Origin: Phoronis australis
Taxonomy: Eukaryota; Animalia; Phoronida
NCBI GenBank assembly: GCA_002633005.1
Contig: NMRA01000148.1
Coordinates: 620,001 to 684,000 of the forward strand
DNA: 64,000 bases
Direction: 5' to 3'
Below, piece after piece: positions 37,400 to 64,000 of this stretch. The notes under the pieces are model-generated. The model was not told the DNA's origin. It saw nothing but the letters and a program-made list of their open reading frames with translations, and did no database searches. The position numbers were made by a program, and so were the translations under genes. Position 1 is the stretch's first letter; each line of letters opens with the position of its first letter.

Positions 37400-38400
37400 A
37401 GAAAGAATATCCTAGTCGAGAATAAAGAGTCAGGTAATCCGAACAACGCTTCTTTAGTAGATAAAGTTACATTCATTAAAAACTTGATTTAGTCAACAGG
37501 ATAAGCTAATCCACAATTGCTTTACAGTCTTACAATCACACAAAGTATGCATGTCAGTCTCAGGGACATCTTAATCCGGAATACAATGATACAATACACC
37601 AAATACTTCATTAGAAGAGTCAAATAATCCGAACAACGCTTCTTTACTAGATATAATAACATTCATTAAAAACATAAATTAACCAACAGGATAAGCTCAT
37701 CCACAATGGTTTTCCAATCTTACAATCACAGAAAGTATGTATGTCAGTCTCAGGGACTTTGTTACAAAAAGTACAAAGATCATGATCAGCGACGCTCCGT
37801 TTTTCTAAACATTTGGTTGGGATAAGTGAAGCAATCTGAATTGAACCCATTTCATTTGAGTATCTGGATAATGTCTCATGCAATTATTATTTTTCCACTT
37901 CATATTCTCATCATTCATATTCGTAAACACAGATTCCACTTAATTTCTGAAGAGGGTCGAATGAATGCATTATTGACAAAAATCTTATAAAAATCAATAA
38001 GCTTTTTTGTGATTGCTTTGAGTAATGGCTTGATAAATACCACTGGTATTTCAAGTGCACTGTTATTAATCAAATCTGTCTTTTAATTTTATAATTCCTA
38101 CAGGAACCCCTAAATATATATTCTGCAAAGGGTGAAAGAAGTCCCCAACGAGTACAAAAATGATCCACGATAGCCATGAAGCCTTCCTGCAGGATGAATC
38201 ACATCTGTGAAGATATGGGAACCATTTTCATCAGAGACATGAGTACAAATAGAGTCATTAAACCATAGCAGTTGAAATTCTAAGTCCCTCGCACTATGAG
38301 CGTCTGATCATGAACAGACACTAACACGGCTAATTGTTTTTTTATTCGAGGAAAGCATCGTCTATCTAAAATAATAGACACCAAGTTTTAAAAAACATTA
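37400..38400 (-). mobile_element. Degenerate LINE 3' fragment (zf-RVT), with a local ~190-bp internal duplication
   Basis: ORF 37647..37883 contains CTFCNKVPETDIHTFCDC (CxxC...HxFxxC zf-RVT pattern); 37425-37570 is repeated at 37615-37760. Confidence 0.65.
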
Positions 38401-39000
38401 TGAGAGTACATAGTTTAAGATAAATGTATAAACGATACTGTATCGTTATGGGTTAAGATTTTCCTTATCCAACTACATTAAGGTTTATGAATCAACTTGG
38501 TATCGAGACGCGTGTCTCGAGACAATGGATAGAGGTAAAGGCAATATGCATTCATATCAGTTTTCATGGATGCGTCAAAAGCACTGAACAACTAGGCTAC
38601 ATCGCATAACATACAAATAGGTTTACAACATTAAGGTTTTTGTTCAATTTGTTCTCATTTGCTCTTTACTGATTGAATATGTCCGTGCTTTCTGTGCTCT
38701 TGTTAAATTAACGACATTCACACAAAAAACCTATCCTTTGCTTACAATGGCAACAACCACTGTTCAACAGATGTACTCCTTGCAATTTAACAGTCTCGCC
38801 GGTGTCATACAATGAGTTGAATGTACTTTTAAGTCACTAGTTCAAATATGATTATTGCTCGAATCTCAATTCAATCCTTCCCATGTGCACGCTCTGAGTA
38901 TGCCCCTCTCTTCGACTTTGTTTTATCGGTGTTATTACAAAAACTCCGGCAGCGTTCAGTGGAATTCACCTGCGAGATTGCGTTGCTTGCATTGGAGTCT

Positions 39001-41317
39001 CTAGTTTTCACGTGTATCGAAGCTTTCATGCGCATGCTCAGTTTGTGAAATGCGTTCCGTACTCGTGTCTAGATGGCTTCTTTGCGCGCCACTCGCGTCA
39101 TTCGCTGAAGTTTGATTACACTTGCGGGAGTAGCAAGATTTTGGATCAATAGCTGAGAAGGTGTACAGAATGGGATTAATAGCAGAATTGATAGGCATGA
39201 CGAACACCGCTATCCAAGCTGACACCTGGCGGCTGATGGTGACTCCTGATAGAGCAAGAGCTCCGACTGTGCAAATAGGAATCCAGCAGAAGAAATCAGT
39301 TAAAACAATCAAAACCACACGTTTTGCCAAAGTCATGTCTCGGCTAGAACTCTTTCGCTTACTCTCTAGTCTGTGCCGTCTGACGCTGATATAAATATTA
39401 GCGTAGCCGGCCGATATGAAAGCGAAGCAAAAGAAGTTGAAAGCAATAAAAATGACCGTTGAATAAATCCAGCCCTGTGAGGATACATTTCTTAAGGTAA
39501 AGGGCAAACAGACGGACGTTGTTCCGTAATAGTCAACTCCGTACAATACCAGAGGTATCGCCGCTATGGCGCAGCAGACCACCCAACCAATCCCCATGAT
39601 GCAGCCAGCTGATTTCTTTGACAGAGGGGTGACTTTAAAGGTAAATATTAGGACAAGCATTCTATCCAGGGTGATTGTAACAAGAATAAAAACAGACATT
39701 TCGCATGCAATTGTGGAAATAAATCCTCCGAGCTGACACAGAAAACTGGTTTTCCAGTCCTTATCATAGTGATAAAATTTCCCAATGCTGTAGAAGTATT
39801 GGTCAGCTGAAGCGATGACCAGGAGGTAGATACCCATAATTAAGTCAGAAATACTCAAGTTGAGAACCAAGAAAGAGTTAACATTTTGGCGCTCTGCTTT
39901 TAAACGCCATATGATGACGGCAATATTACCAACAAACGCACAAGATCCAATTACCCAAATGGCATATCGAAGGAAATGGTCCGCAAGCATGTCATCACAA
40001 GTGGAAAATTCATCTGCTTCGGGTAAACACGTGACATTTTTGTTCACGCTGCAACAAAATCGAAAGGCATCAGACCAGAAGACCGTTAATTTTATTTTGT
40101 TAAAGGCGCCGTCCGCTATTTTTAAATCAGGATCATTTGATTGGATGTTAATTTTCTCGATGCGTCCTTCGAAAGCATTAGCCGAAATATAAATAAGTTG
40201 GTTTAAAGAAAGATCCACGTGACCAATGCTCACGTGATTAAAGGCGTTAGCGTCCAGTTGCCGTATAGCGTTTTCTTTCAAATTGAGAAACAAAAGGTTT
40301 TGTAAATCTTCGAAGACAAACGATGGGATATGCGAAAGGTTATTATAGGAAAGATCGAGAACTGAAAGAAAATTGTATCCTTTAAATGTCTCAGTAGCAA
40401 GGTCGAGGCGGTTGTGCCTGAAGGAAAGAGTCCGCAGTTTTCTGGAGTAGGTCGGAATATTTTTCAAACTAGAATTGTCGCAATTCATAGTCAACATATC
40501 ACAAACACATGGTAACGGGCAGACGTCTGGTAGATTACAGTATTTCTCATCGTATCCGTCGACGCATTGCGCATACCCGTCACATACCAGTTCCTGGTCA
40601 ATACAGTACCTCTGTCCGGGACATCGTAGGAAACCTGGGCAGGCGTACGTGTTACAAGCGATTTCGTCCTCGCCGTTCAAGCAGTCCAACGTTCCATCGC
40701 ATACTCGGTGAGGGTATATGCAGTATGATTCGGGACATTTGAACATCCCAGGACACTGAAATTGTGAGCAGTTTCGAAGGTGACTGTAATCGCGGCAACC
40801 GTCAACGACAACTGGCAAATAGGGGTCAAGATCATAAATGCACGCCATCTGGCGTTTGAAGCATGCTGAATGTTCGACCTTGCAACGGACCTTACTGCTG
40901 CTGTCACAATACGGCCTCAAGTAGTTAGCCTGGTTGGATTCGAATTCAAGATCAACACCATTGCTGTCACCCAAAACTCCCCGGAAGAATTCATCAGACA
41001 TTTGTTCGTCCTCCGCAGTGAAAGTTGGACAATCTGGTATTAAATCATGTTTACGAGATGGGTGCAAACAGTCATACGAGTAACACTGAAACCCATTTTC
41101 ACATCGTCGGCACAGGTCTCTATTTTCGTCTTCAGCAGTAGTGCAGTGCTTTATGAAATCGCAGGTTTTGTTTCTAGGAATACATGAGCCGTCGTTACAG
41201 CGAAACTCGTCCTCAGAGCATGAGGGAAATAAACAATGTAATTCATCGGACCTGTCCTTGCATTGACTCGAATGATCGCAGACGAGGGAATAAGGAATGC
41301 ACTCTCCGCTAGAACAC
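39001..41317 (-). CDS. Receptor exon 3: LDLa repeats, LRRNT/LRRs, hinge, 7TM (GRL101-like core)
   Basis: ORF 39001..41370. Multiple LDLa repeats, CPLPCVC LRRNT, LxxLxLxxN repeats, FCC...C.P..DEFSTCDDML hinge and seven hydrophobic helices. Confidence 0.95.
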
Positions 41318-44300
41318 CTGTAAAAGACAGCGTGCGTAAAGTATGTGCCAGAGTGGTTAGTGAATTTCAAAATTTTTCATTTTTGATTGGCTGTTTGGAA
41401 AAGGAACATTCACTTTGAGAGAAGATGTTATACGTGAAATTGTATCTAAGGTTTTCGCCATGAGTTACGTATGCAGATACATTTCATTAAAAAAACAGAA
41501 TTCTACCTACCTGAACTGGTGTCCACACTCACATCTGTGTTCATCTTCACCGCCGGTGCAGTCTGATATTCCATCGCAAAGCTGTATTAGTAATATACAA
41601 GTTTCATCAAGGCATTTGTGTTGATGATTGCCACATCCTCCCTTTGCAATCATCTCCCGCTCGCACAACACGTTAAGAGGTCCTGTAGGATAACCACCAG
41701 AGAAACCGTCGTCGGTACAGTTCCAAAGTTCCATTGCGTATGGCACTGCTTTGGCGGAAGTAGAGACGTTAATTGTATTGCTTTCGAGAGCATTTACGAT
41801 TCTGCATGTATCGTTGATCGTACGCAGCCAAATACCTCCATATTTTTTTCGATGTTTCCAAATTGACAAGAGATAATTCACGACAGGCATATAATTTTCG
41901 TCAACATCGAGAATCCAACCACCAATAGCGGAACATATCTTTTCAGCTTCCTTATAGGAAAGAGATGTCGACAAATTCCGCATGCTCGTTTCGAGTCGAA
42001 GACATTTGGGCCCTTTTTCTAGGTAAGTCCACGACATTGGACACGCCTTTAGCGTTGCGTTACCAATGAATCGATGTGGAGCTGAAAGTTGTGCTTCAAT
42101 AGAAGACGTTTTGTTTTTTTTGCAAATGTATCTGGCATTTTTAAATTGATAGTTGCATGGAAGCTTAGCCCAGATGACATCGTTTGAAACGGGAAGACGT
42201 CTTACATGGGGCATTGCCATCACAGTGCAAATGGAATGCTCGAATAGAACTGGCTGGATCCGGTTTTTTGGAAAGACGTCGTTCATGTCTAACTGCATTT
42301 GACGTTCGCTGGCACTCATTTGTTTTGGGAAAGTAGTGCACCAGTTGCTACTCGTTCTTGCACTCTGAGAAAAAGGAGTGTACCATTGGCTGAATCGAAG
42401 AGGTGTGCCATCTAACCAACTTCCTTGGTCACCCTACAAGTATACAATTTACTGAACAGTTTAATATGCCGGATATGCATGTACTGCTGGATGTCGAAAA
42501 GGCGTTTGACTCCTTGTCTTGGCCTTTTATTGACAAAGTTCCAATTTATATTATTTTGTGACTCAATAAAAAAATAGCTCCGTATACTAAACAGAGGGGC
42601 AAAGCAATATGTTATACAGAACGGTGTCACATCTAACTTTTTGACATAGAGCGTGGTTGCAGGCAAGGTGGTCCGTTATCACCACACCTTTTTATTCTAT
42701 GCGAAGAAATTATGGGTTGGCTCTTTTAGCTAGACAAGAGTGTTGAGGGAAGTATGCAGATGATACGGTTATATCTTAAGATGGCTTGGAGCAGTCTCTC
42801 CGGAAAACATTTCACATTTTAAACCAATTAGCGAAGTATTCTGGTCTTTGATTAGGTTGTATGAATGGTAGCTATCAAAAAATGTGTTATGACGTAAAAC
42901 TGATATGGGCAACATCAGAATTCACTTTACTGGGTATTCAATTCTCCAATGATTTAACGACATCAATTTTAGCAGTAAGTTGGATGAAATAAAGAAGGCT
43001 ATAGACATTTGAGTAAAAAGAAACTTGCCTTTTTTGGAAGAATAACAGTTGTGAAATCCATAATTATGCCAAAACTTATACATGTTTTTACAAGTCTCCC
43101 GTCCCCTTCACAGGCCTTCCTGAAGTAACTGAACAAACTCTTCTACTATTTTGTACGGAACGGTAAAACGGAAAAAAAATGTCGCAAGACTATCGCTCCA
43201 GACTATAATGTTGGTGGAGCCAGAATGATTGACGTCACTTCTTTTACGAAAGCCATTAAATTAATTTTTAAATTAATTTGGTTTTGTAGACTACTTTGTC
43301 AAAGTACTACAAGCCAATGGACAGTTCTAGCAAATGGTCTGTTATCGAGTTCCAAATAATTACTTATTGTTTGGGATTTCTATTTTACAAAGATGTCTCA
43401 AATCACTTCTAATGTGCTTTGGAAAAAGGTCTTTCAGTGTGTACATGAATTCAGATTGTTAATTCCCAAAAACGATAGTATTCATCAGCCTAACGGTTTA
43501 ATTCAAAAATAATAATAGGTAACAAGCCTGATTCTATAAACAGTGGTTTCAAAAAGACATAAATCATATACACTACTTCCTTAATTCTGATGGTTATTTC
43601 CATAGTTTCGAGGAGTTTAAACAAAAAAATTACTTTAGGGCCTACGAAGCTCATTATATTCTAACTGGAGTCATCTCAGAGAGGGAAAGCATCAAGTATA
43701 ATTCTCCAAAATCCACGAGGGCTCTAGATAAGGGAGATAACGGCTGAGAACATGCAATAATCTATTTATACCACATACTAAACGAGAAACATTGCAATGA
43801 ATCGATTTACCTTTTCTGACTCTCCACGGCTTTGTAACTACTTTCTATGTCATAGGCCCGGGGTCGGAGGTCGTGACCTTTTTTGTCAAATATTGCTTTT
43901 ACTCAAAACCAATTGAAAACTTAAATATTATAGAAATAAATTGAATTTATGAATTAAGGTTTACCAACTATTATAGCGTATAAGTACAGTACAATGCGGT
44001 TTGTTGAACGTGCGATTATTGCGCGTGCTCATTTAAGCATTCTATTTCCACTCATGATGACGTCAGTCGCTGCGTGGTGTAGTGGTAAAGTCGGCGAGCA
44101 GCAATATTAGGGTCCCGGGTTCGACCCCGTCCTCGGTTTCCCGCCAAATCGTTATCTCACTAGTGAGATAACTTTATGAGTTATTACACGGTTGTATCTG
44201 CCATTTGACGCTAATATTGTGGTATAAATCGAACTTATTTATGGAGAATAAAATTTACCACGTTGATCGTCTCTCAAAATTGCATTGCGAAAGAACAAAC

Positions 44301-47300
44301 TGTCAAATGAAGTGGAATGAAAAATGACGTCTTCCGGATACTACAGAATGGTTGTACAATGGGATTGTTCTAAAAAACCCTCGACCTCCATACCCCACGA
44401 CCTCCACGACCCGCTCGACCCCCAACCCCCACGACCCACAACCAATTCGACCCATGACCTGAGGCAATAGATGTATCTTTGCGCTTTTTATATATTTCAT
44501 AATCATATTTTGTCACTGAATGACTTTCCCATGAGAGTTATTTTCACGCAAACCTGCCCGACTCAAGTGAGGTTAAAAACAAAATATTGCGTAAGAATAT
44601 GACCTGAAATAGCGAATTGTGAGCGTGCTATCGTTGTCACGGAAATAGTTCCTCGAGAGGTTACCAATGGACTAATGTAAATAACTGGCTTGTAGATGCT
44701 GTTGGACATACAATCAGTTCTGATAAGTGTTCAAGTTGTAGCGGTTTTACAAAGTATGGTTATTTGCCTCGGCAAGTACCACATTTGTAAACAAAGATTG
44801 AAAAGTAAAAATCCCTGCACGCTGAATTTATTAAACGCTGGCAAGGTATTGATCTTCTTGTGTTTATTGTAGCCTCTAGATTTTTAATGTTAAATTACCT
44901 TTATACTTATCAGCAATGTAAATTGACTTTAACTGATTTTTGACTAAACAAATAAATAAAATTACTGTACTATCGAGAGTACACTGTAATTGTGTGGTCT
45001 TTACCGCACCTATTATATTTGAATAAAAACTTTGAAAAAAGTATATAGTAAAGTGTAGCAGACACCTGAAATCAAACAACCTTCAAGGAGACGCGCCTTT
45101 GTTAATAGAACTAATTAAGTAATCAGTTGTAAGGCATAAATTTTTGTTTCTTGACGTTTCCATAGAAACGAGGACTTCTTGACCAACACGGTTACCTCGC
45201 TAATGCTATGGCAGACATCGACGTGCTGCTGTATTGCAACTTTTGACGTAGACAAGGACCATGAACACCTTCTATGATGTGCGATTGAACTCAGTAATCG
45301 ACTGTAGTCAACACTTACCTGTCCCTTTAAGCCTATGAAGACAATCGTGTTGGTCATATTAATTACATGTCTTTTCCAATAAGTGGTCAACATATTCTTT
45401 ATGAATGCCAATTCGTGTTCACTGCGCACAGATGTTAGAACACTGCCTTCTGTCTCGCACAAACTCTCAGCATTGTCCCATGTTTCACGTTCATTTTGTT
45501 GAAATGATTTGAACACGTAACAGTTCCCTTCATATAAGAAGTAGTTCTCGGGACAATCAGTTGGAAACAAAGCGACTGACGGTTTCTCGATTTTTAACAT
45601 CTGGAATTCAATAGCAAACCAAAGGTTTTGTACTTGAGTGATTTCTACGAGGGAGCTTTGCGCCGTGTATGTCAGATACGTGCTGTCCAACTGATGATCG
45701 GTGGTGTAACAATCAGATTCAAACCAGTGGCTTCCATCGCACGGGCTGTCCAGCTTCTCTGTAATTTTTGGCTTTTCGATATTCGCAGTAAAGTCAGTTA
45801 CAAAACGTATTAGATAGCGAAAGAACACGTCTTGCATCCACTGTCCACAAAGTTGTTTGGTGAAGTAAGATAGTCTGAGACTGATGCGAGAAGGTGATGT
45901 CTCTTTGTTGCGAGGAAAAGTTGAAGTGGGAACGTAAATGTAACGCCCGCACGTGTCATTGTAGTGTTGATTGAGCGCCACATCAACACATTCAGTGCTT
46001 TGAGGATTGAAAACTGAAAGAACCGAAAATGTCAGGATGGTAGCTCGTGGAAAACCAGGACAAAAATGGACAATCTTCACTGGATATATAAGATCACGTA
46101 AATTACAAACTGGCTGATGCGGGTGTATTTGCAAGTAATATTGGAGACAGTTAGGCCGGTAAGCACACTCGTATCCCGACGATTCATTCAGCAGAAGTTC
46201 CGTGATTACATTTTTGAACACAGGAATTTCAACGACAGAGCTGAAATTTTCATGAGCGCTAGGAAAGTGCAAGAAAACGATACATGGTCGATGATTGATT
46301 TCCACTCCCTCTCTTGCTACATCAGAATAAATAACCATACAATCTGTCTGGGTAACCGATACTTCTATTTCTGTAGAAATGTCGTTGTTATTGAAGACTA
46401 CAACGGTAGCAAATTGTTGTGTCGTATAAATAGTAGTTGGATGCTCAGGTCTGCAGAACGGACCTCTCATCGTAAGCCCGCCGCTCGGTAATGCACCGTC
46501 ATAGACTGCATAACCAGCTTCTACACAATCGTCGTCGTCAAATGATCTCTTTGAAAAATAAATTTTTAACAATTTTTGGGGATTCGAAGCTTCAAACGTC
46601 CACGCACAGTTGACTGCCCTTCTTGTACTGAGGTGGACAAAGCGTGGAAAATGTGACATTACAATGCGCCTATCGATAAGCGGTTTACCACATTCTGTGG
46701 GCAACGTGTCACGAAAGACAGAACTATACTTGACTTCAAATTTAGTGTCGTAATATCGTGTTACAGAGAGGTAAACAGCAATTTCCGACTGACTGAAATT
46801 TCTTTGTCTGGTATCCTTGTCCGTTAATAAAATGTTGTACTTTTCTTGTTTACCAAAATAAAACGCGCCGTTGTACACTCTCATCTCTTGATAGCTTGCG
46901 CCTGGTTTCCTTGACACGTTCCATATCAAGAAAATGCCGAACCCAATCGGGACTGAAATTTCCCACACATACAAATTTTGAGGCCCACGTCTAAACGAAG
47001 GCTCAAAACTTGCAGTTGGACAAATGATGATCCCTTCTACGCCCATAGGCATCTTTCTTGGTCCTGCAATCCTTCTCGCCAGGGCATTCTCTTTTATCAC
47101 AGACTTATACGAGAGTGTAAAGTCGCACCTTGAGATAGTTGAGTCGCATTCAAATACCACGTATGCCTGGTGTGACGAAGAATACAAGACAGGAATGTGA
47201 TTTCGGTCACCGCAGTACTTTCCCAACACATCACTCTTATCGTCACTTCCGTCAAAAATCGTAAGTTTGTCGTATTCGCAGTTCACAGAGTAATCCATGT

Positions 47301-47997
47301 TGACAGAACTTAGCTTCATCTCGATCAGTTCGTTGGAATGTGCTGATAACGTTGCTTGACAGTATTTATTTTTCCTCTGCAAGTGATCAAAATCTGTCTG
47401 GAAAGTACCTGAATGGTAAAGGTCACTGTAAAAGTTTTCACAGGGTCCACCTTTATCTTCCAAAGGGTTATTTACCTTATAGTTGATTACCAGTTTTACA
47501 TTAACTTGGTTATAATGCATCAGAGTAGCTTTGAACTGACTGGAGGCCAATAACCAAACGCGTTCCTTCAAATGATCAGCTGATCCGCATAGCTCATAAT
47601 TTGAAGGTCCATACAGCTTGGCAGAGGTTGTCAGGTAACGGCCGGGGGATGAGGGCGACCTGGCATCAATGAACAAATGTGGGTCACCAACAACATTTGT
47701 GTCACATACAGGTGATGACGTTAAGTACATTTCAACGAAACTCAGTTCAATCATTCCCAAAAATTCCGGTAAAATGTTCCACATATTGCTGTAAACGTTG
47801 TTTTCAAAGCGCACATACGTGATCGTGCCCGATGTTTGTTTTAGTCGGATTTCCACGGTGGAATTGTTTTCGCCATCGCCTTTATCACCGTCATTCGCTG
47901 GAAAGCCACTAGCGCCATCAGAAGAAGCTCTTGATGGAATCGGTATGACCAACAACGCGACTACGACTGCAGAAGTCGCCTTCAGAAGAATATCCAT
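39001..47997 (-). CDS. GRL101-like LGR (rhodopsin-class GPCR) with CUB + C-type lectin + LDLa + LRR ectodomain, about 1972 aa, 3 exons
   Basis: Exons 47997-45319 (phase 0 donor CAG|gtaagt), 42433-41511 (ttgtag acceptor; AG|gtaggt phase 2) and 41317-39001 (ttacag acceptor) join into a 5919-nt open frame. The joins restore a split C-type lectin (FIGLKGQ|GDQGSWLDGTPLRFSQW) and a split LDLa (CGHQFR|CSSGECI). 7TM motifs: ITLDRM, LTDFFCWIP, NSAINPILYTF. Confidence 0.85.
41511..42433 (-). CDS. Receptor exon 2: end of C-type lectin 1, C-type lectin 2, first LDLa
   Basis: WLDGTPLRFSQW...W..LPC.....YICKK; CPMSWTY...KC...SYKEAEKICSAIGG...NVLCE; CGNHQHKCLDETCI...CDGISDCTGGEDE. Confidence 0.88.
42440..43830 (+). 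mobile_element. Degenerate L1/Tx1-type LINE reverse transcriptase fragment, antisense within receptor intron 1
   Basis: Broken plus-strand frames give LLDVEKAFDSLSW, RGCRQGGPLSPHLF, YADDT and GRITVVKSIIMPKLIHVFTSLP. Confidence 0.85.
44062..44140 (+). mobile_element. tRNA-derived SINE head / tRNA-like pseudogene
   Basis: A box tggtgtagtgg and B box ggttcgacccc; no valid acceptor or anticodon stem. Confidence 0.55.
45319..47997 (-). CDS. Receptor exon 1: signal peptide, CUB-like domains, start of C-type lectin 1
   Basis: First ATG after an in-frame stop gives MDILLKATSAVVVALLVIPIPSRAS. CUB motifs CEYDKLTIFDG...LGKYCG and CAWTF...DCVEAGYAVYDG...GPFC. CTL start CPENYFLYEGNCY...TWDNAESLCETEGSVLTSVRSEHE. 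Confidence 0.88.
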
Positions 47998-49907
47998 GAA
48001 AACGACTATCACCGCTACAAATACTCAAATCTTGAAGTTTTCGGCATAGACATCAAATGACACAGAGCAAAACTCGCGGAATCTCTTGCTCTTCTCTGAA
48101 GATGAATCTCTGAACTAAATAATTATTTTTCAGAGTTTTAACCTTTTTATTAAAATTTCTCTGACCTGGCAATTTCAATGCCTAAATCTGTTTTCTTCAT
48201 TGAGTGATCTGCGGCGATCAACAAGGATCTTGAATCAATGCCCTTCCGATCCGCGAAGCCTGTTGAAACAAACGCTTTCAATAGCATCCATAGAACAATA
48301 CTTTTTCGCTGCATATGAGCAACAAAATAAATAGCTAAAAACTAAAGTAATCAATAACCAGAAAATAGAAACTCTTCTGGAACCATACAGTTGTTCGTTT
48401 AAATAAGCATCACAGAACTTTCTCTTTCACATTCTGTTTAGTAAAACAATTTAATGTTAATCATCCTCTTGATGAGACCACGGCAGGCTGGTGTATTTAT
48501 AGTACGTTTATGTGCGAGCCAGTAATGTAAACGCAATTAGCTTGGCTATTGTGTGAGCTAGGAAAGATTGATACATTAGGATTGCTAGTAAATATTCTCT
48601 TTCAAAAGAAGCTTCCGGTACCGAGTATCCGAACAAATTTCATCGATATTGTTTTAGCATCATCATACACAGAAGAGTTTGATGCTTTTGTTAAATTTTG
48701 GTCACGATATGATAGAAATACTGCAATTTGTCTTTTGCAAAAATTTCAGCAAAAACATTGGCACAACTTAGCATAACCAGCTTGGGTTAAACTGCACAGT
48801 TGCCATCTCCTTTTGTAGCAAAACGGCATTTGCTGAAATGTAGTACAGAAATCGTAAGTTACTTTCATCCAAAATCGAAAAATTCTTTGCATCAAACAAA
48901 TCAATTACCTTCACTAAGAACAACAAAAAAGAAAAAATACAATCCAATCCTGTTTTATTTGAAGTGAAATAAATAAAAACATTGAGTTATCGATATATAT
49001 TTTACATAATTTATACAAATTTAAATTGTTTTAAAATATACTTAGTGAAACTGATTCTCTAGGGCATGTGTCAGTTTGACATTGATTTCAAAAGCAGCAT
49101 AAGTATGCATATTATATGAATAACGGACAGTTATTCTAAGATGACGGTCAAAACTTGTATCGGTGACTTACAAACGGCATATTGATAACATTAACGAAAT
49201 TTGCATGGTCTGAAAGTCCGATCCTGCGATTTTTCTTGAAGGACTACGTGAAATTCATAATAAATCGTCAGAGATTTCAGTCAAATTGAGAATTGTAAGT
49301 GGTTATTTATTTGGCCAAGGTAAAACAGGAATAAAATTGTGTGTTTCTCGAGAACTGGAGTCGCCGGTTGCAAAACATGCTTGCTACTTGAATGAATGAT
49401 TTCTGTGCGAATGATTGCTTGTTAGTCCACCAGCACAGAGGCGTTGTGACAAAGCAACTGGCTCTAGCACTCAAACACCGCACTTCTGGTGTCAAGCCCT
49501 GCAAAACGATGTTGGCCAACTCGACAAGTGTAGTACACTGTAGTACACTTCTTGGTACAACTTCAAAACAGCCTGCCCAACAACAATGAGTCATGGAAAA
49601 TGTGTACGCGAGAAAAAAATGTAGTGCGTTAGAAAGCACATACAGATTGTGAAAAATAAATTCATCCACGGCAAAAGTGACGATAACACTTGTGGGACTT
49701 AGGTATGGTGATGAGGGCGGCCAATCGAACAAAGTGGAAGTTGCACAGTGCTTGTATGTTAGTACAAGTTTTCATAAAATCAATCCGTTCCAAGGTATTG
49801 ATTTTGTAACAGGCCTGACATTTTGACTGTAAACCCACCTTCAATTATGAAAAAGAACTTTTGATTTAGATCACTTATCCATTGGATTGGATTTCTGTGT
49901 TTCACCA

Positions 49908-49985
49908 GTGGTCCCAATGGCTCAGTGGCTAGAGCGTCTGCACGGTTAACACAAGGTCCTGGGTTCGAGTCTCGGAAGGGGGCAG
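49908..49985 (+). mobile_element. tRNA-derived SINE head / tRNA-like pseudogene
   Basis: A box tggctcagtgg and B box ggttcgagtct; anticodon arm imperfect (gtt, Asn-like). Confidence 0.55.
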
Positions 49986-52499
49986 ACTTATATTCATTAG
50001 GTCACGTGATGTGGCCAAAAGCTGGCGTGCTGACGGAACAAAATGTTCGTAACACATTTCCACGCCATATTGAGATAGATATTGATATAGACTATTGCTG
50101 GTCTCCTACATGCCTGCACCCAGGGGGGATCGGGGCGAAGTGGAAAAAAAGTCCGCCTCAGAGAAACAAAAAGTCCGAAACGTAGAAAACGAGACAAAAG
50201 TTCACTAAAAAAGCAAGAACTACCAAAATTCGGCAAATTCATAATTCATAGCTCTGAATGTACCCCGTGAAAGGTCCACAATCTCAAAAATTCGAGCCCC
50301 CCTATTTTAGGCCCTGGTGGCAGTTATAATTAGATTTCTTTACTGAAATTTCATGAAATTTGGCCAAAACATTTCCATCGAGGAAACGATGGCACATGTA
50401 TGTTTGAGTACGACCTTTCAATATTAATCAAATATTCTGTAACGATACTTTGTTTTCTGGTTACTGTTGTACCTGAGAATGACTTTTGATTAATATCGAA
50501 ACGTCGTTTACGTGGAGCACTCTAGCGTCGTTTTTGTATTCCACATTTTCTTCTAATTTGGCCAAAAACTAATAATGTTTACATGCACGTTTGCGAATGA
50601 GTCTAACCTGTGGTACCACATCAGTGATAGATTTAGCACTTTGGAAACCGTTCTTATGTCTAAGCTGCGTCCCCCCGCTCAGCTGCCAACTGATACTGTG
50701 CCCTGGTACCGTACACTTTATTACCTGATAATGATTACATAAAATATATAAATTCACTTTAATCTGAATTTCGTCGTTTTTACAAGATGCTAATTGTTTA
50801 ACTGATTCCACTCAAACCTGATTTTGTCACTTGTTGTCACGCTCCCACAAGAGATAAAAATGACATCTCTTAATAATATCAGCTTATTAATATTGGACGC
50901 ACGTGTTTCAAAATTTTATTGTAACTAAGTGATCTCAGTACAAATCCATACACAAACTAAAATGATCCTAGCAGCCTTTTGCCACAATAAGTAAGTTAAG
51001 ATGTACTTTGGAAAGTTTCAGCAACACACTCAGGTTGAACCAAGCTCACGTTGAGTATGAAAGTGCATAATTGTTACCATGGCAACTGAGTATCATAAAA
51101 TCGTTCCTCCTTAAACTAGTATTTGAAAAGCATGATAATGGAATATATGAAGCTATGAGGCAGAAGGGTTCGAGTAAGCTTCACATTTCATAACCCTAAT
51201 GTAACCCATCAAGTAAGATTTTTCACGTTTTGTTGCTTTAATATATCTTGAAGTAGAAAGTAGCTAAGTTACAAAACAAAATCAAAATCATAATTTATGC
51301 ATAAAATCAAAAAAAGATGTGCTTCCTATTGTGACACATAATCACACCTTGAACAAAAGCTGACTTTCAATCAAAAACGATTTCAAAACAATTTCAGCTG
51401 TATTTTAGCAGAGTGCAAAGTCAACTGAATGGGCAATTCACACTGAAATAAATAGAAGATTCCTAATAGTTATGACGCAAGCCCCAGAAAACTGTAAAAA
51501 TGCCTTTTTGTAGCAGTGTGTCTACAAATGTATTATAGTTAAATCTTCACAGATGGCAGTGTAGCCGATTGAACATGGCTTTCAGTTCAGAAAAGTTGCC
51601 ATGTTGTCCAACGTGAATTGTGAGCATTTTAACAACTCAGTAACTTACAACAGCATGATTAATTCTGGTGTAAACTCTTGTACTGTACATAATTTTAGGT
51701 AAAGTAAGGACATGTGTCACTAAATTTTACGACTAGAATATTTGTGAAAATAATGTTTAAGCGTTTTTAAGCTCGTAACTTATTTCGCTGACATCGAAAA
51801 ATGGCCGATCAGATCAAAATAGCGAGTCAAAATTTGACACATAGAAAGCGATATCTTTTGAATGGACCATGCAATTTTGATAATTTGATTTTTGAATTTT
51901 AGACATCGTTGCATTTCCTATGACTTAAGCTTTTGTCTTCAAAGAGTGTCAGACGATTGACTGTGGGTTTGTTTAAAAGGTAGCTATGCTTTGAGATTGT
52001 GCGTAGATGGAAAGTGAATAATCAAATTCAGTAATTAATTTATTATATGATAACCCATAATTAGACAAGTGAAACCTATTGTTAATTAAGTAATCAACTA
52101 CAAAGAGTAACTACGCTAGCGCCAGATTTGCAAAAAAACTAGTTGGTTGACAGTACTTTTGGACCACATTTTTGGAATCGGTAGGAAATTTGCTTTCGGA
52201 ATCTAATGTTGGCTTTAGTCGAGCATCGGCAGGAAAGTGGTGATTTTGGGGTGAAAAGTGCCGATTTTGCAATTTTTTGCCCTCATTTTTCTTAGTTCGG
52301 CTTGGTTTCCACTGGGAGTGAATGGGTCAAAAATACAAGAGAGAATAAAGTTTCTGTGCTCATCTGTAGGGCTTGTGATGTGAAATGACTCAAAACATTT
52401 CCTTATTTGCATGTAGTTTTGGACAAAGTGAAGAAAGGGTGAAGAGTGCATTGACGTGTGTTCTGACAGGCAAACCCCTGTGAGAACTGTTCTGTGCCC

Positions 52500-57490: not shown

Positions 57491-58657
57491 ACACCTTAAC
57501 AATCACGTATGTATGTCAGTCTCAAGGACCTCGTTGCAAAATAGCACAAAGACCACGACTAGCTACGCCTCGTATATCACTTGGTTGGAATAAGTTTGTA
57601 AATCAATCTGAATAAACCCAATTTACTTGAGTATTTAGATCATGCCTAAATCCATTTGACATTCTCATCATTCACATAAGTAAACACAAATTCAATTTAT
57701 TCCCTGAAAAGGGTCGAATGTATGCATTATCGACAAAAATCTTAAATCCAATAACCCTTTTTCGTGAATACTGTGAGTAATAATTTCACAAGTATGAGAT
57801 ACTACAGGAAGTTCAAATGCAATTTGTCGATAATCAAACCTGTCTTTTACTTTTGTAATTACATCAGGGACAGCTAATATAAATTCTGTAAAAAATGGAC
57901 GGAGTCTCTCAAGAATACAAAATCCGTAATAACCAAGAAGACTTCTTGAAGAATGAATTAAACCTGTGACGATATGGAAATCATTTTTTATGAGAAACAT
58001 CTTTGCTATTGATAGCATTAGATTCACTAAGCCATAACGATTGAAATTCCGAGTCCCTATGAGCACCAGATCACGCATAGACGTTAAAATGTCCTACTGA
58101 AATGTTTTTTTTTTGACTTGAAGAAATATGTGTCTAAAAGAAGAGGTATCAAATTTTAAAAAGTTCGAAATATATTGTCCAAGATAACTTTAGCGCACGA
58201 TACTGTATCGCTATGGGATGAAATTTTCCTTATCCAACTACATTAACGTTTATAAATTGACTTGGTATCGACGTTTGACTCGAGAACACGGACAGAGGTA
58301 AACGCACTATACATCCATATACGTTTTTTGGGTGCTTCAAAAGCACTGATCAACTGCATCGCATAGCATATAAATAAGTATCCAACATAAGTTCTTGTTC
58401 AACTTGCTCGGATTTTTCTCTACTGATTACATATGTCAGTGCTTTCTGTGCTTTTGTTATTTTAACGACATTCACAAAACAAACCTATACCTTTGCCAAT
58501 AAATGGCAGCAAGCAACACGTACACTCCTTGCAATTTAGCCCTCTCGCCGCTGTCATACAATGAGTTGAATGTACTGTTTAATCACTCGTTGCTTAAATC
58601 TCTATTCAAGTCTTCCCATGTGCACGTTCTGAGTATTTCCCTCTCTTCGACTTTGCT

Positions 58658-60538
58658 TTAAAAGCCGTTTATAAAAGCTTCGACATGCGAGATCGCGTTG
58701 CTTGCATCGGAGTCTCTTTCGTTTTCAGGACGTGTGTCGAAGCTTTCATGCACATGCTCGGTTTGTGAAATGCATTCCATACTCGTGTCTTGATGGCTTC
58801 TTTGCGCGCCACTCGCGTCATTTGCTGAAGTTTGATTATACTTGAGGGAGCAGCAAGATTTTGGATCAATAGCTGAGAAGGTGTACAGAATGGGATTAAT
58901 AGCAGAATTGATAGGCATGACGAACACCGCTATCCAAGCTGACACCTGGCGGCTGTTGGTGACCCCTGATAGAGCAAGTGCGCCGACTGTGCAAATAGGA
59001 ACCCAGCAGAAGAAATCAGTTAAAACAATCAAAACCAGACGTTTTGCCACAGCCATGTCTCGTCTAGAACTCTTTCGCTTACTCTCTAATCTCTGCCGTC
59101 TGACGCTGACATAAATATTAGCGTAGCCGGCCGATATGAAAGCGAAGCAAAAGAAGTTGAAAGCAATAAAAATGACCGTTGAATAAATCCAGCCCTGTGA
59201 GGATACATTTCTTAAGGTAAAGGGTAAGCAGACGGACGTTGTTCCTAAATAGTCAACTCCGTATAATACCAGAGGTATCGCCGCTATGGCACAGCAGACA
59301 ACCCAACCAATCCCCATGATGCAGCCAGCTGATTTCTTTGAAAGAGGGGCGACTTTAAAGGTAAAGATCAGGACAAGCACTCTATCCAGGGTGATTGTAA
59401 AAAGAATAAAAACAGTCATTTCGCATGCAACTGTAGAAATAAATCCTTGAAACTGACACAGAAAACTTTTTTCCAGTTCTTATCGTAGTCGGATAAAATT
59501 TACCAAAGCTGTAGAAGTATTGGTCAGCTGAAGAAATGACCATGAGTTAGATACCCATAATTAAGTCAGAAACACTCAAGTTGAGAACCACGAAAGAGTT
59601 AACATTTTGGCACTCTGCTTTTAAACGCCATATGATGACGGCAATATTACCAACAAACGCACAAGATCCAATTACCCAAATAGCATATCGAAGGAAATGG
59701 TCTGCTAGCATGTCATCACAAGCGTCCAGTTGCCATATAGTGTTTCCTTTCAAATTGAGAAACAAAAGGTTTTGTAAATCTTCGAAGGCAAACGATGGGA
59801 TTTGCGAAAGGTTATTATAGGAAAGATCGAGAACTGAAAGAAGACTGTATCCTTTAAATGTCTGAGTAGCAAGGTCGAGGCGGTTGTGCCTGAAGAAAAG
59901 AGTCCGCAGTTTTCTGGAGTACTTCGGAATATTTTTCAAACTAGAATTGTCGCAATTCATAGTCAACATATCACAAACACATGGCGACGGGCAGACGTCT
60001 GGTAAATTACAGTATTTCTCATCGTATCCGTCGACGCAGTGCGCATACCAGTCACATACCAGTTCCTGGTCAATACAGTACCTCTGTCCGGGACATCGTA
60101 GGAAACCTGGGCAGGCGTACGTGTTGCAAGTGACTTCGTTCTCGCCGTTCAAGCAGTCCAACGTTCCATCGCATACTCGGTGAGGGTATATGCAGTATGA
60201 ATCGGGACATTTGAACATCCCAAGACACTGAAATTATGAGCAGTTTCGAAGGTGGCTGTAATCGCGGCAACCGTCAACGACAACTGGCAAATAGGGGTCA
60301 AGATCGTAAATGCACGCCATCTGGCGTTTGAAGCATGCTGAATGTTCGACCTTGCAACGGACCTTGCTGCTGCTGTCACAATACGGCCTCAAGTAGTTAG
60401 CCTGGTTGGATTCGAATTCAAGATCAACACCATTGCTGCCACCCAAAACTCCCCGGAAGAATTCACCAGACATTTGTTCATCCTCCGCAGTGAAAGTTGG
60501 ACAATCTGGTATTAAATCATGTTTACGAGATGGGTGCA
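58658..60538 (-). pseudogene. Pseudogenised, truncated duplicate of receptor exon 3
   Basis: Highly similar to 39001-41067. Lesions: CAA>TAA at 60234-60236, TAC>TAA at 59547-59549, small indels near 59461-59495, an in-frame 249-bp deletion (junction 59722/59723), and loss of exon 2 and the exon-3 acceptor. Confidence 0.9.
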
Positions 60539-60823
60539 TACAGAAATGAGAGTTTATACACAAAATTTTACTTTACCGCTCAAGTAACTTTATTTACGGT
60601 CTACGAAGCTCATTATATGCTAACTGGAGTCATCTCAGAGAGGGAAAGCATCAAGTAATTTTGTCGCGTCGTTAACTGTATATCGAAGTTATTTTGGGAG
60701 ACGTCAAAGGAGTAAATAAAATTTACCACGTTATTGTCTCTTAAAATTGCAAGAAAACAAAGTGTCAAATGAAGTGGAGTGAAAAATTAAATCTTCCGGA
60801 TACTACAGAATGGTGGTAAAATG

Positions 60824-63516
60824 GGATTGCTCTAAAAACCTCTCGACCCCCACACCCCAAGACCCCCTCGACCCACGACCACCTCGACCCTCAATCCCTA
60901 CGACCCACAACCCCTTCGACCCACGACATGTGGCAATAAATGTATTTTTGCGCTTTTTATATATTTCATAATCATATTACGTCGCTGAATGACTTTCCCA
61001 TAAGACTTACCTACTCGCGAATCTGCCCTGAGTCAAGTCTGGTGGTTAAAAGCAGAAATTTGCGTAAGAACATGATCTGAAATAGCGAATTGTGAGCGTG
61101 GTATCGTTGCACGGAAATAGTTCCACGAGAGGCTACCAATGGCCCTGTTCTACTAAACTTGGTGAGAGAATTGTTTTACATTTTTATTATTTGCTTTCTG
61201 TTGTATATTCGTTCACAAACCACTAAACTTGGGGAGAGAGTACATTACACATAATTTTACATTTTATTATTTGCGTTCAGTTAATCGTTCACAAAAGACT
61301 CCATCTAACGTTGAGATACTTTTTAGGTAACAGTTTGTTTTTTTCAAACTGTATTTATTAAAGAAATTACATACTCGTCGGTCCCTTGCACTCTCCCCAA
61401 AAAGTTTGAATCCGCCATTCACTGAAGAGCAGACGAGGCGATTACACTTTGCCGGGAACGACATTTGTAACGTTGTTAGGTTTTTTATTTGATTTGGTGG
61501 CGTTCTTTTCTCTGATTTTGGATTTCAAACTTGCCGAATCGACTCTCCTAATAGAAAAAATAAGAGCAGCGCGGAGCGTTGAAATGTGCCCACGAATGGA
61601 TCGCAAAGGGTGTGGTTTTAGGGTTGTTTATTTGTGTCATTGAAAAGGACCACTAGATGGCGCAAAAACGTACAATCCATCCGAAAATGGGAACATGTCA
61701 TAGCTTTTTTAATAGAAAGCTATTCACCAAATTTCATAATAGAAATCTGTAACGGAACTTCAGAAAAACAAATGAAAACGGAATAAAATGAAATTCGCCA
61801 CTGAAGGGCACAGTGTTCATTGGATCCGCCTGAAAGTTGTCATTGTCTGTTGTTAGCATCATATAAATACACCTACTAAATTTAATAAAGATCCAGCTGT
61901 GGGTTTAGGAGATACATCTATGGGCGCAAAACAAAACAAAACTACCATTGGAGACGCCACAGTGGCCAAAGTCGTCATCGTCAGCCATCCTCTTCACATT
62001 GAGAACATATACGCCAATTTTTAAAACCATCCTTAGAATGATTTGGTTGATAGAGGGGTGGACGCCAAAAAAAAGACTCGAAAACAGCAAAAAATGGCCA
62101 CTAGGTGGCGCAAAATACCTCGATTCCATCCGAAGACGGGAGGATAGCGTCATCTCATCCATAGATGCCTGTATTCAAAATTTTATGAAAATCCGCTGAG
62201 GATATTTGAAGATGCAAAGGTAAACGTAAAATCTAAAATTGCCCCCACGAAAGTCGTCGTTGTTGTTTGTCAACATCATATAAATACACTTGTTAAATGT
62301 AGTAAAGATCCTGCAAACGGTTTAAGAGATACAGCCATGGGCGCAAAAACGATACTTCCACTAGGAGGCGCCACAGTAGTTGAAGTCATCGGAAAATCAT
62401 CGTCAGCCGTCCACTTAATAGTAAAAACATACATGCCAATTTTCACAATTATCCTGAAAGCGGTTTGGTTAGGGTGGAGGCCAAAAAGCAGACTCGAAAA
62501 TGGTATAATTGCCACTAGGTGGCGCAAACTAGGTCGAATCCATCTGAAAACGAAAAGATAGCGTCACCACACTAACAGAAGCCTGTACTGACGCCAAATT
62601 TTATGAAAATACGTTAAGGACCTTTGTAGATACAGATGTTAACGTAAAAAAATAAAATTGCACACCAGTAGTCAAATCTGTCTGAAAGTCGTCCTTTATC
62701 AACATCATATAAATGCACTTACCCGGTACTAAATTTAGCAAACGGTTTAGGAGATACAGCCATAGGCGCAAAAATACAAAACTGCCACTAGGAGGCGCTA
62801 CAGTAGTCGAAGTTGTCGGAAAATCATCGTCAACCGCCCTCTTTGTAGTAAGAACGAACATGGCAATTCATCACAAGCATATTTAGAGCGGTTTGGTTGA
62901 GGGGTGGACGCTAAAAAACAGACTCGAAAACAGTAAAAATGGCCATTAGGTGGCACAAACTACGTCGAATCCATTCGAAAACGGAAGGATACCCTTGTCT
63001 CACTAATGAGATGCCTATATGCCAAATTTTATGAAAATACGTTGAGGACCTTTGAAGATACAGAGGTAAACGTAAAAAAATAAAATTGCCACAAGCGGGC
63101 ACACCAATAGTCGGTTCCGACCGAAAGTTCGCTCATGCCGTCCCATTCATGAAAGGAACACGTGTGCAAAATTTCATGAACATGCATCAAACGGGTTTGG
63201 AAATAACTAAGCAGCGGACGCTGGACGCCGGACGGAGTCCGCCCAGACGGACGGACGGACGGAGATGACGGCATAATGCGTCCACATAAAAATATGTGGG
63301 CGTATAAAACAGGGAAAAGACAGCCAAGCTCACGGCCCAACTCTTTGGTCCTGCATGTCAGCGCTTGTTCTATGTTCAAATCGAGTCGAGCTTGTAAAAA
63401 ATGGGTCAAGGGGTCGTGGACTGTGGGTCGAGTGTGTCGACGGGGCCGTGGGTCGAGGGGGTCGTGCGTCGCGGTGGTCGTGGGGTGTAGGGGTCGAGGG
63501 GGTTTTAGAACTAGCC
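60824..63516. mobile_element. Mutator-like element with (cgacccc)-rich TIRs, hosting nested insertions
   Basis: Left ggattgctctaaaaacctctcgacccc; right ggggtcgagggggttttagaactagcc. Candidate 9-bp TSD ggtaaaatg (60815-60823) and ggtacaatg (63517-63525). A left-end remnant also lies at 44362-44670. Confidence 0.6.
61560..63310 (-). mobile_element. Full-length HINE/DINE-1-like element with (GTCC)n microsatellite and tandem array
   Basis: Minus strand starts ttttatacgcccacatatttttatgtggacgcat (hairpin), then ccgtccgtccgtc and multiple ccactagg(a/t)ggcgc units; it ends gtgggcacatttcaacgctccgcgctgctctt. Confidence 0.75.
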
Positions 63517-63599
63517 GGTACAATGTTTTTCTTGCATCTCTTCATTCACTGAAGATGTTTCTCTGAGATGGTTCCAATTTAGGCTGGTTCATAGAATTA

Positions 63600-63990
63600 G
63601 GCTGTAATGAACTTTTACGCGGGGCGTAATTGATAGCTCATTGTGCACGTTTTGCTTAGATGAAAACGAATCTATTGTCCATGTGTACTGGTCATGTAAC
63701 GTTACTCAACAGTTTTTGACTAATGTTAATAACTGGCTCGTAGATACTGTTGGACATAGTTTAGAGCTGCCCTTACAATCAGTTCTGTTTGGTGTTCAAG
63801 TTAAAGCGGTTTTACAAAGTATGGTTATTTGCCTCGGCAAGTACAACATTTATAAACAAACATTGAAGAGTAAAAACCCCTGCCTTGCACTGTTTAAAGA
63901 GGAAGCTGCATTGTACATTTCCACTGAATGGTATATATGCATAAAAAAGGAAGCACGCTGAATTTATTAACGCTGGCAAGGTATTGATCT
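63600..63990 (+). mobile_element. L1/Tx1 LINE 3' end (zf-RVT)
   Basis: ORF 63641..63961 CTFCLDENESIVHVYWSC...LGKYNIYK; homologous to the deleted remnant at 44672-44860. Confidence 0.75.
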
Positions 63991-64000
63991 TTTTTGTTTA

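What the first reader, a model, noticed from the sequence alone, without database searches (positions are those of the whole stretch)
39001..47997. Giant ~1970-aa GPCR fusing CUB and C-type lectin domains onto a GRL101-type LDLa-LRR-7TM receptor
Seen: three separate ORFs splice through canonical, phase-compatible sites into one frame, and both joins complete domains that are otherwise broken (a C-type lectin and an LDLa). The order is signal peptide, ~4 CUB-like domains (two clear), an unassigned Cys-containing segment, 2 C-type lectins, ~7 LDLa (two atypical), LRRNT, 5-6 LRRs, hinge and a rhodopsin 7TM (DRM, DxxCWxP, NPxxY). Established: Lymnaea GRL101 and the RXFP1/2 relaxin receptors combine LDLa, LRR and 7TM. 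CUB and C-type lectin modules are typical of complement and pattern-recognition proteins. Inference: this may be an orphan receptor that couples glycan, microbial or matrix recognition directly to G-protein signalling. I cannot confirm how widespread this architecture already is in annotations.
Basis: partly seen in the sequence, partly recalled or inferred. Interest (0 to 1): 0.85.

Follow-up and report, generated by a model that had tools for sequence, protein, structure and literature searches.

The report
Giant CUB-lectin relaxin-type orphan receptor
This is an intact three-exon animal gene predicted to encode a very large relaxin-receptor-like cell-surface receptor that carries CUB, lectin-like and LDL-type binding modules, a design already present in gene models of many marine invertebrates and partly described in snails, whose ligand is unknown and is likely a large protein rather than a simple sugar.

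Summary
Exons 47997-45319, 42433-41511 and 41317-39001 (minus strand) join through GT-AG introns into one 1972-aa frame. The first join completes a C-type-lectin domain (CTLD), and a nemertean relative aligns straight across both joins. RNA reads fall on all three exons at low depth; no read joint was listed. Corrections: only two CUB domains are firm and one is weak, the second CTLD is degenerate, and the first lacks the EPN/QPD and WND sugar-binding motifs. The design is not unique. CUB, CTLD, LDLa, LRR and 7TM occur together in database proteins of echinoderms, a hemichordate, amphioxus, a nemertean and a land snail, and in an intron-free 1579-aa frame in a metagenome contig. CTLD-bearing GRL101-like receptors are published for Biomphalaria, and CUB-bearing type-C LGRs for Nematostella and Trichoplax. 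The 7TM falls outside both the 12-LDLa GRL101 clade (AU p=0.001) and the RXFP clade. The hinge and ECL2 switch residues of RXFP1 are kept, so activation likely follows the LGR route. Verdict: a new member of a known, poorly described group of orphan receptors.

The parts
45319..47997 (-). Coding exon 1 (aa 1-893): signal peptide, CUB-like region, unassigned segment, first half of CTLD1
47926..47997 (-). Predicted signal peptide (about aa 1-24)
   Evidence: Only hydrophobic peak before the 7TM; no SignalP run
47686..47850 (-). Weak, partial CUB-like match (aa 50-104)
   Evidence: 3 bits; hhalign probability 48%, score 28 against shuffle maximum 15 with one CUB alignment, 3% with the other
47098..47421 (-). 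CUB domain, firm (aa 193-300)
   Evidence: Pfam; 54 bits; probability 98%
46330..46692 (-). CUB domain, divergent but supported (aa 436-556)
   Evidence: probability 91% and 74% against two CUB alignments, above shuffles; 8 bits
45562..46329 (-). Unassigned Cys-containing segment (aa 557-812); its end sits where relatives carry a CUB directly before the CTLD
   Evidence: 0 hits among 1.84 billion proteins; no usable Atlas hit; not above shuffles against CUB; folds unusable; position
42434..45318 (-). Intron 1 (2885 nt, GT..AG, phase 0), splits CTLD1; rich in dispersed repeats
41511..42433 (-). Coding exon 2 (aa 894-1201): second half of CTLD1 (to 42119), degenerate CTLD2 (about 42049-41657), LDLa1 and the start of LDLa2
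41318..41510 (-). Intron 2 (193 nt, GT..AG, phase 2), splits LDLa2
   Evidence: zero depth at 41362-41559 in run X3, which covers both flanking exons
39001..41317 (-). Coding exon 3 (aa 1201-1972): LDLa2-7, LRRNT, LRRs, hinge, 7TM, short tail, stop
40534..41638 (-). LDLa array (aa 1159-1462), seven units, two atypical (span includes intron 2)
40066..40521 (-). LRRNT plus 5 clear LRRs (aa 1467-1618)
39985..40065 (-). Type-C LGR hinge (aa 1619-1645), aligns with the TSHR hinge end and the RXFP1 I396/S397/L402/L403 segment
39160..39972 (-). Rhodopsin-family 7TM (aa 1650-1920) with DRM, CLPF in ECL2, CWIP and NPILY
57757..64000 (-). Decayed tandem copy of the same gene: part of intron 1, most of exon 3 and the 3' flank; lacks exon 2, with premature stops, a frameshift and an internal deletion; runs off the window

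Best explanation
This is an intact three-exon gene predicted to encode a 1972-aa orphan type-C leucine-rich-repeat GPCR whose outer CUB, CTLD and LDLa chain likely captures a large extracellular protein or glycoprotein, which would move the LRR-hinge and release the conserved hinge/ECL2 switch to activate a G protein. Shown here: the frame, the domain order, the conserved switch residues, low-level transcription of the exons, and relatives with the same CUB-CTLD-LDLa-LRR-7TM order. Inferred from relatives: the two splices and RXFP1/LHCGR-like activation. Guessed: that the ligand is a protein surface rather than a Ca2+-bound sugar, that the role is sensing outside or non-self cues (chemosensory or immune), and which G protein is used.
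For: Frame and splice sites. The CTLD is complete only after join 1. Lineus P0013 aligns as one block over aa 795-1924 across both joins, 33% identity, and P0015, P0016, P0017 and P0022 also span both. L067 and L071 (99.6% identical, in effect one gene) hold the same order in one uninterrupted 1579-aa frame. No hydrophobic leader exists between aa 22 and the 7TM, so a separate 7TM gene would lack a signal peptide. The best solved relative is RXFP1 (E 4e-53), then TSHR, LHCGR and FSHR. The hinge segment and the ECL2 C-hydrophobic-P-hydrophobic motif match the switch described for RXFP1 and LHCGR. CTLD1 reads QPV and WAK where canonical EPN/QPD and WxD would stand. GRL101-like genes are tandemly expanded and tentacle-expressed in apple snails (PMC6573481), and CTLD-bearing ones cluster in a parasite-resistance region (PMC12297450); this window holds a decayed tandem copy.
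Against: No read joint was listed at either intron in 4 runs, of which under a fifth of the three raw-read runs was read; one contig crosses donor 2 unspliced, and read strands are mixed. No reads lie on 47600-48367, so the start is not shown. No ligand, G protein or tissue is known. The snail papers may concern other GRL101-like branches, and in PMC12297450 the top resistance variants lie in a neighbouring non-GRL101 gene. Motif variants can still bind sugar (PMC5379193, abstract start in listing). About 250 aa of the ectodomain stay unassigned.
Confidence: 0.55

Rival explanations
1. It is a hormone receptor for an insulin/IGF-like or other endogenous peptide that binds the LRRs and LDLa units, with the CUB and CTLD part acting only in localisation or co-binding.
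For: All de-orphaned type-C LGRs bind insulin-family peptides (PMC11863921 passages; own knowledge). GRL101 was proposed as an IGF receptor (10.1101/2021.04.15.440029). RXFP1 is the best solved relative.
Against: The 7TM lies outside both the RXFP clade and the 12-LDLa GRL101 clade (AU p=0.00126 for the latter). Only 5 clear LRRs. Long branch, variable N-terminal cargo and a decayed tandem copy fit a fast-turnover family better.
Confidence: 0.2
2. It is a true lectin receptor that binds microbial or matrix glycans through its CTLDs and signals directly to a G protein.
For: CTLD1 is a complete fold by profile. Five of 13 relatives keep EPN/QPD plus WxD. The same idea is proposed for Biomphalaria (PMC12297450).
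Against: This copy lacks both motifs, and CTLD2 is barely recognisable.
Confidence: 0.15
3. The three frames are not one transcript, or the gene is a barely expressed relic: exon 1 is a separate secreted CUB protein read through to the stop at 45115, and the 7TM part is separate or silent.
For: No read joint listed; mean depth mostly under 1-2 on the exons; one contig keeps intron 2. The neighbouring copy is decayed.
Against: Exon 1 alone ends in half a CTLD. Relatives are colinear across both joins. All 5.9 kb of frame is open with intact motifs. Two unnamed database proteins (P0104, P0110) begin at the position of join 1, as expected if relatives have an exon boundary there (inferred; their DNA was not seen).
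Confidence: 0.1

Closest known systems
CTL-bearing GRL101-like GPCRs of Biomphalaria sudanica SudRes2 (PMC12297450)
   Same: CTLD, LDLa array, LRR and 7TM in one chain; tandem duplication with truncated copies; orphan; proposed sensor role.
   Different: Those are about 860-1300 aa with no CUB annotated (0 of 18 CTL-fold rows list the CUB entry IPR000859); this one is 1972 aa with at least two CUBs, a second degenerate CTLD and two introns. I did not have the SudRes2 sequences, so kinship was not tested in the tree.
Uncharacterised CUB-CTLD-LDLa-LRR-7TM gene models (Amphiura P0015, Lytechinus P0016, Holothuria P0022, Antedon P0014, Anneissia P0019, Branchiostoma P0017, Glandiceps P0108, Lineus P0013 and P0018, Candidula P0030)
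   Same: Same core order with the same interrupted LDLa array; 28-38% identity over exon 3.
   Different: Many add F5/8, kringle, EGF, MAM or SRCR modules or a kinase-like tail; P0013 has no detectable CUB; several keep QPD/EPN and WxD. They are not shown to be one clade.
GRL101 / type C2 LGR (Lymnaea GRL101 and its 12-LDLa orthologues)
   Same: Multiple LDLa, about 6 LRRs, type-C hinge, related 7TM (41-44% to the orthologues).
   Different: About 12 LDLa from the N-terminus with no CUB or CTLD; a separate clade at 100/99 support that excludes this protein.
RXFP1/RXFP2 and insect LGR3/LGR4 (type C1)
   Same: LDLa-LRR-hinge-7TM; hinge and ECL2 switch residues kept.
   Different: One N-terminal LDLa and about 10 LRRs, known insulin-family ligands; separate clade.
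Nematostella LGR4 and Trichoplax LGR5 (PMC9545775) and coral CUB-LDLa-LRR-7TM models (P0119, P0121)
   Same: CUB domains in front of an LDLa-LRR-7TM type-C receptor.
   Different: No CTLD reported or detected; carry fibronectin type II; much shorter.

Membership tests
LGR (LRR-containing rhodopsin GPCR) | LRRNT + LRRs + Cys-rich hinge + rhodopsin 7TM | tested here: met
   Pfam; the best PDB hits are all LGRs
Type C LGR | LDLa module(s) N-terminal to the LRRs | tested here: met
   definition from PMC11863921 passage
Type C LGR | Short type-C hinge and ECL2 C-hydrophobic-P-hydrophobic motif | tested here: met
   alignment to RXFP1; motif
Type C2 LGR (architecture sense) | Multiple LDLa repeats | tested here: met
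   5 units at 22 bits or more, plus 2 atypical
GRL101 orthologue (12-LDLa clade) | 7TM groups with the Octopus, Pomacea, Biomphalaria, Lineus and Saccoglossus GRL101 | tested here: not met
   clade 100/99 without it; AU p=0.00126; Lymnaea GRL101 itself was not in the tree
GRL101 orthologue (12-LDLa clade) | About 12 LDLa from the N-terminus, no other modules | tested here: not met
RXFP1/2 (type C1) | Single N-terminal LDLa and 7TM inside the RXFP clade | tested here: not met
   (invertebrate RXFP-like rows; no vertebrate RXFP in the tree)
CUB-CTLD-LDLa-LRR-7TM receptors | Core domain order CUB, CTLD, LDLa array, LRR, 7TM | tested here: met
CUB-CTLD-LDLa-LRR-7TM receptors | One clade by 7TM | tested here: inconclusive
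   2 changes needed, 0% of 200 bootstrap trees with 1, but starred branches force only 1
Ca2+-dependent C-type lectin | EPN/QPD and WND motifs | tested here: not met
   QPV and WAK at these sites
Ca2+-dependent C-type lectin | Sugar binding | not testable with these tools
   needs a binding assay
Functional GPCR | G-protein coupling and ligand | not testable with these tools
   needs a cell assay

The most novel reading that the evidence does not exclude
The gene is one member of an old, unnamed branch of type-C LGRs, separate from GRL101 and the relaxin receptors, with a conserved CUB-CTLD-degenerate CTLD-LDLa-LRR-7TM core shared by protostomes and deuterostomes and a swappable outer cargo. 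It would be an invertebrate class of pattern-recognition GPCRs that turn binding of microbial or environmental macromolecules directly into G-protein signals, with the schistosome-resistance-linked snail genes as members.
Probability: 0.25. Interest if true: 0.75.

Novelty: new member of a known kind. Interest (0 to 1): 0.38.

Why it matters
As one gene it adds little: the design is already in annotations from at least five animal phyla. Its value is as a clean, intact model of a neglected receptor group that is usually labelled 'GRL101-like' or 'uncharacterized'. The tree here shows that this copy is not a GRL101 orthologue, so the IGF-receptor hypothesis for GRL101 need not apply to it. If such receptors sense non-self or environmental macromolecules, they would link lectin- and complement-type modules straight to G proteins, which bears on snail resistance to schistosomes and on invertebrate chemosensation.

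Tried and rejected
No whole genome is held for this window, so copy number beyond the window is unknown. No indexed RNA holder was listed; the runs laid were added by species label. Two read lays gave no joint at either intron; depth was too low to count for or against. The exon-1 search among longer proteins returned only cubilin-like proteins (12 hits). The unassigned segment gave 0 hits among 1.84 billion proteins and no usable Atlas hit. The single-sequence fold of exon 1 failed (pLDDT 32). The second fold used an alignment that scattered the unassigned part, so only the CTLD half was confident (mean 48; aa 1-143 under 50); no fold search was run. My idea that aa 675-812 is a decayed CUB is not supported by hhalign and rests on position alone. 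Monophyly of the CUB-CTLD receptors was not shown; one search is a quick tree because the careful search did not finish; one search used 29 of its 56 rows and the simpler LG+G4 model. No tRNA in the window and no Rfam match at 38000-50000. No paper describing CUB and CTLD together on an LDLa-LRR-7TM receptor was found in searches; subscription journals and preprint supplements were not searched, and one supplementary file of PMC12297450 could not be read.

Full report
Observation. The minus strand holds three long frames at 45115-48024, 41507-42433 and 39001-41376. Both proposed introns are GT..AG, and joining exons 47997-45319, 42433-41511 and 41317-39001 gives 1972 aa without an internal stop. 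Pfam on the separate frames finds CUB and the first 46 of 107 Lectin_C positions in frame 1, one LDLa in frame 2, and LDLa, LRRNT, LRR and a full 7tm_1 in frame 3. A CTLD profile built from relatives, without this protein, covers the joined aa 815-998 end to end at 63 bits, so join 1 completes the domain. Join 2 lies inside the second LDLa.

Are the joins real? Relatives say yes; reads cannot say. Lineus P0013 aligns as one block over aa 795-1924 at 33% identity, and four other long relatives also span both joins. Among 80 metagenome loci, 5 had both CUB and CTLD matches. Two of them (L067, L071; 99.6% identical) carry CUB, CTLD, LDLa, LRR and 7TM in this order in one uninterrupted 1579-aa frame, and three carry them in another order. 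Most of the other loci are short or split, so their blanks say nothing. RNA runs added by species label put reads on all three exons only in X3, partly in X2, and on exons 2-3 in X1, mostly at depth under 2. X3 has none on intron 2 while covering both flanks. No joint was listed at either intron, strands are mixed, no reads cover 47600-48367, and one X4 contig crosses donor 2 unspliced with 11 differences in about 300 bases. I put the single-gene model at about 0.9.

Domain inventory. Firm: CUB aa 193-300, CUB aa 436-556, CTLD1, five LDLa at 22 bits or more plus two atypical units, LRRNT with 5 clear repeats, hinge and 7TM. Weak: a partial CUB near aa 50-104, and CTLD2, which scores no better than shuffles here although the matching region of 3 of 9 relatives matches a CTLD at 76-94% probability. 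Unsupported: a CUB at aa 310-432. Aa 557-812 has no relative among 1.84 billion proteins, no usable Atlas hit and no usable fold. CTLD1 has QPV and WAK where Ca2+-dependent lectins have EPN/QPD and WND (motif roles: own knowledge and the abstract start of PMC5379193 in the listing). Five of 13 relatives keep canonical pairs, and in 3 of 13 my pattern found no site.

How widespread. Of 90 hits of 1351-3855 aa to exon 3, 12 have a 7TM, and 5 of these carry precomputed CUB, Lectin_C, LDLa, LRR and 7tm_1 together: Amphiura, Lytechinus, Holothuria, Branchiostoma and Lineus. With family profiles, 10 of the 11 examined have CUB, CTLD and LDLa (P0023, LRR only, was left out, and the profiles were seeded and iterated on these proteins). 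Glandiceps P0108 is a further case, 1 of 98 hits. In most of them a CUB sits directly before the CTLD and the LDLa array is interrupted in the same way. The outer cargo varies: F5/8, kringle, EGF, MAM, SRCR.

Placement. In a 56-row quick tree and a 29-row careful tree of hinge plus 7TM, the 12-LDLa GRL101 orthologues and the RXFP-like receptors each form a well-supported clade that excludes this protein. Forcing it into the GRL101 clade is rejected (AU p=0.00126, LG+G4; its end branch is long, 0.74). The CUB-CTLD receptors are unresolved and are not shown to be one clade. Lymnaea GRL101, vertebrate RXFP1/2 and the Biomphalaria SudRes2 proteins were not in the trees. The source is an animal; the best named hit is a nemertean, which suggests a marine invertebrate (inference).

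Mechanism. The best solved relative is RXFP1 (E 4e-53), then TSHR, LHCGR and FSHR. In that alignment aa 1638, 1639, 1644 and 1645 face the RXFP1 hinge residues I396, S397, L402 and L403, and ECL2 keeps the C-hydrophobic-P-hydrophobic motif. Passages of 10.1101/2022.01.22.477343 show that these form the autoinhibition and activation switch; passages of 10.1101/2021.08.03.454894 give the matching P10 tethered agonist in LHCGR. So I infer that ligand-driven movement of the LRR-hinge activates the 7TM. The ligand is unknown. CUB and LDLa are protein-binding modules (own knowledge) and the CTLD lacks its sugar motifs, so a large protein or glycoprotein is the most likely. A sensing role is suggested only indirectly: tandem expansion and tentacle expression of GRL101-like genes in apple snails (PMC6573481 passages), starfish (PMC6267866 passages) and triton (PMC13403566 passages), up-regulated GRL101-named genes in Biomphalaria tables (PMC13619432 passages), and a decayed tandem copy at 57757-64000 here. 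Whether those genes belong to this branch was not tested.

What is in print. PMC12297450 describes twelve GRL101-like genes with CTL, LDL, LRR and 7TM in a schistosome-resistance region and proposes ligand capture by the CTL (passages; supplement rows, where none of 18 CTL-fold rows lists CUB). PMC9545775 shows CUB domains on type-C LGRs of Nematostella and Trichoplax (passages). Passages of PMC4079206, PMC2246102, PMC2396169, PMC11863921, PMC10140915 and 10.1101/2021.04.15.440029 do not describe the CUB-plus-CTLD form. Eight searches found no paper on the combination; subscription journals and preprint supplements were out of reach. Two unchecked notes of this scan report similar receptors in clams.

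Verdict. A real, well-read gene model and a new member of a known kind. The fusion is neither unique nor recent, and its two halves are each published; the full combination seems undescribed but is common in annotations. Interest 0.38; 0.75 if the group proves to be one old clade of direct pattern-recognition GPCRs (probability 0.25).

Noticed in passing
window 57757-64000 (-): Decayed tandem copy of the gene, 96% identical over 823 bases of exon 3; it carries intron-1 sequence but lacks exon 2, and runs off the window end, where a copy of exon 1 could lie.
   Followed up: partly
window 43600-44900: Intron 1 holds dispersed repeats that draw most RNA reads (depth up to 60, many differences); 44020-44140 looks by eye like a tRNA-derived SINE with A and B boxes, but ARAGORN and Rfam found nothing.
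   Followed up: partly
window 27947-28420 (+): A short coiled-coil stretch that recalls the VAP (VAPA/VAPB) coiled coil from memory; Pfam gave only a weak DivIC match, E 0.024. Possibly an exon of a neighbouring gene.
   Followed up: partly
window 63611-63961 (+): Weak zf-RVT match (E 0.003): likely a retroelement remnant.
   Followed up: no
L004:179-9889 (+), also L007 and L013: A single 3237-aa open frame with MAM x5, CTLD, LDLa, CUB, LRR and 7TM in a different order: another mosaic LGR design.
   Followed up: partly
proteins P0017, P0108, P0115: Relatives with a kinase-like cytoplasmic tail; this gene has only about 50 residues after the 7TM.
   Followed up: no
proteins P0104 and P0110: Unnamed database proteins that begin at the position of join 1 inside the CTLD, as if relatives have an exon boundary there.
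   Followed up: partly
window 41407-41707 and 42123-42301: Two X4 contigs match exon 2 and intron 2 at about 96%; the in-window copy lacks this region, so they come from another allele, another copy or DNA.
   Followed up: no
window 18714-18781 and 20810-21243: Assembly gaps (runs of N), far from the gene.
   Followed up: no
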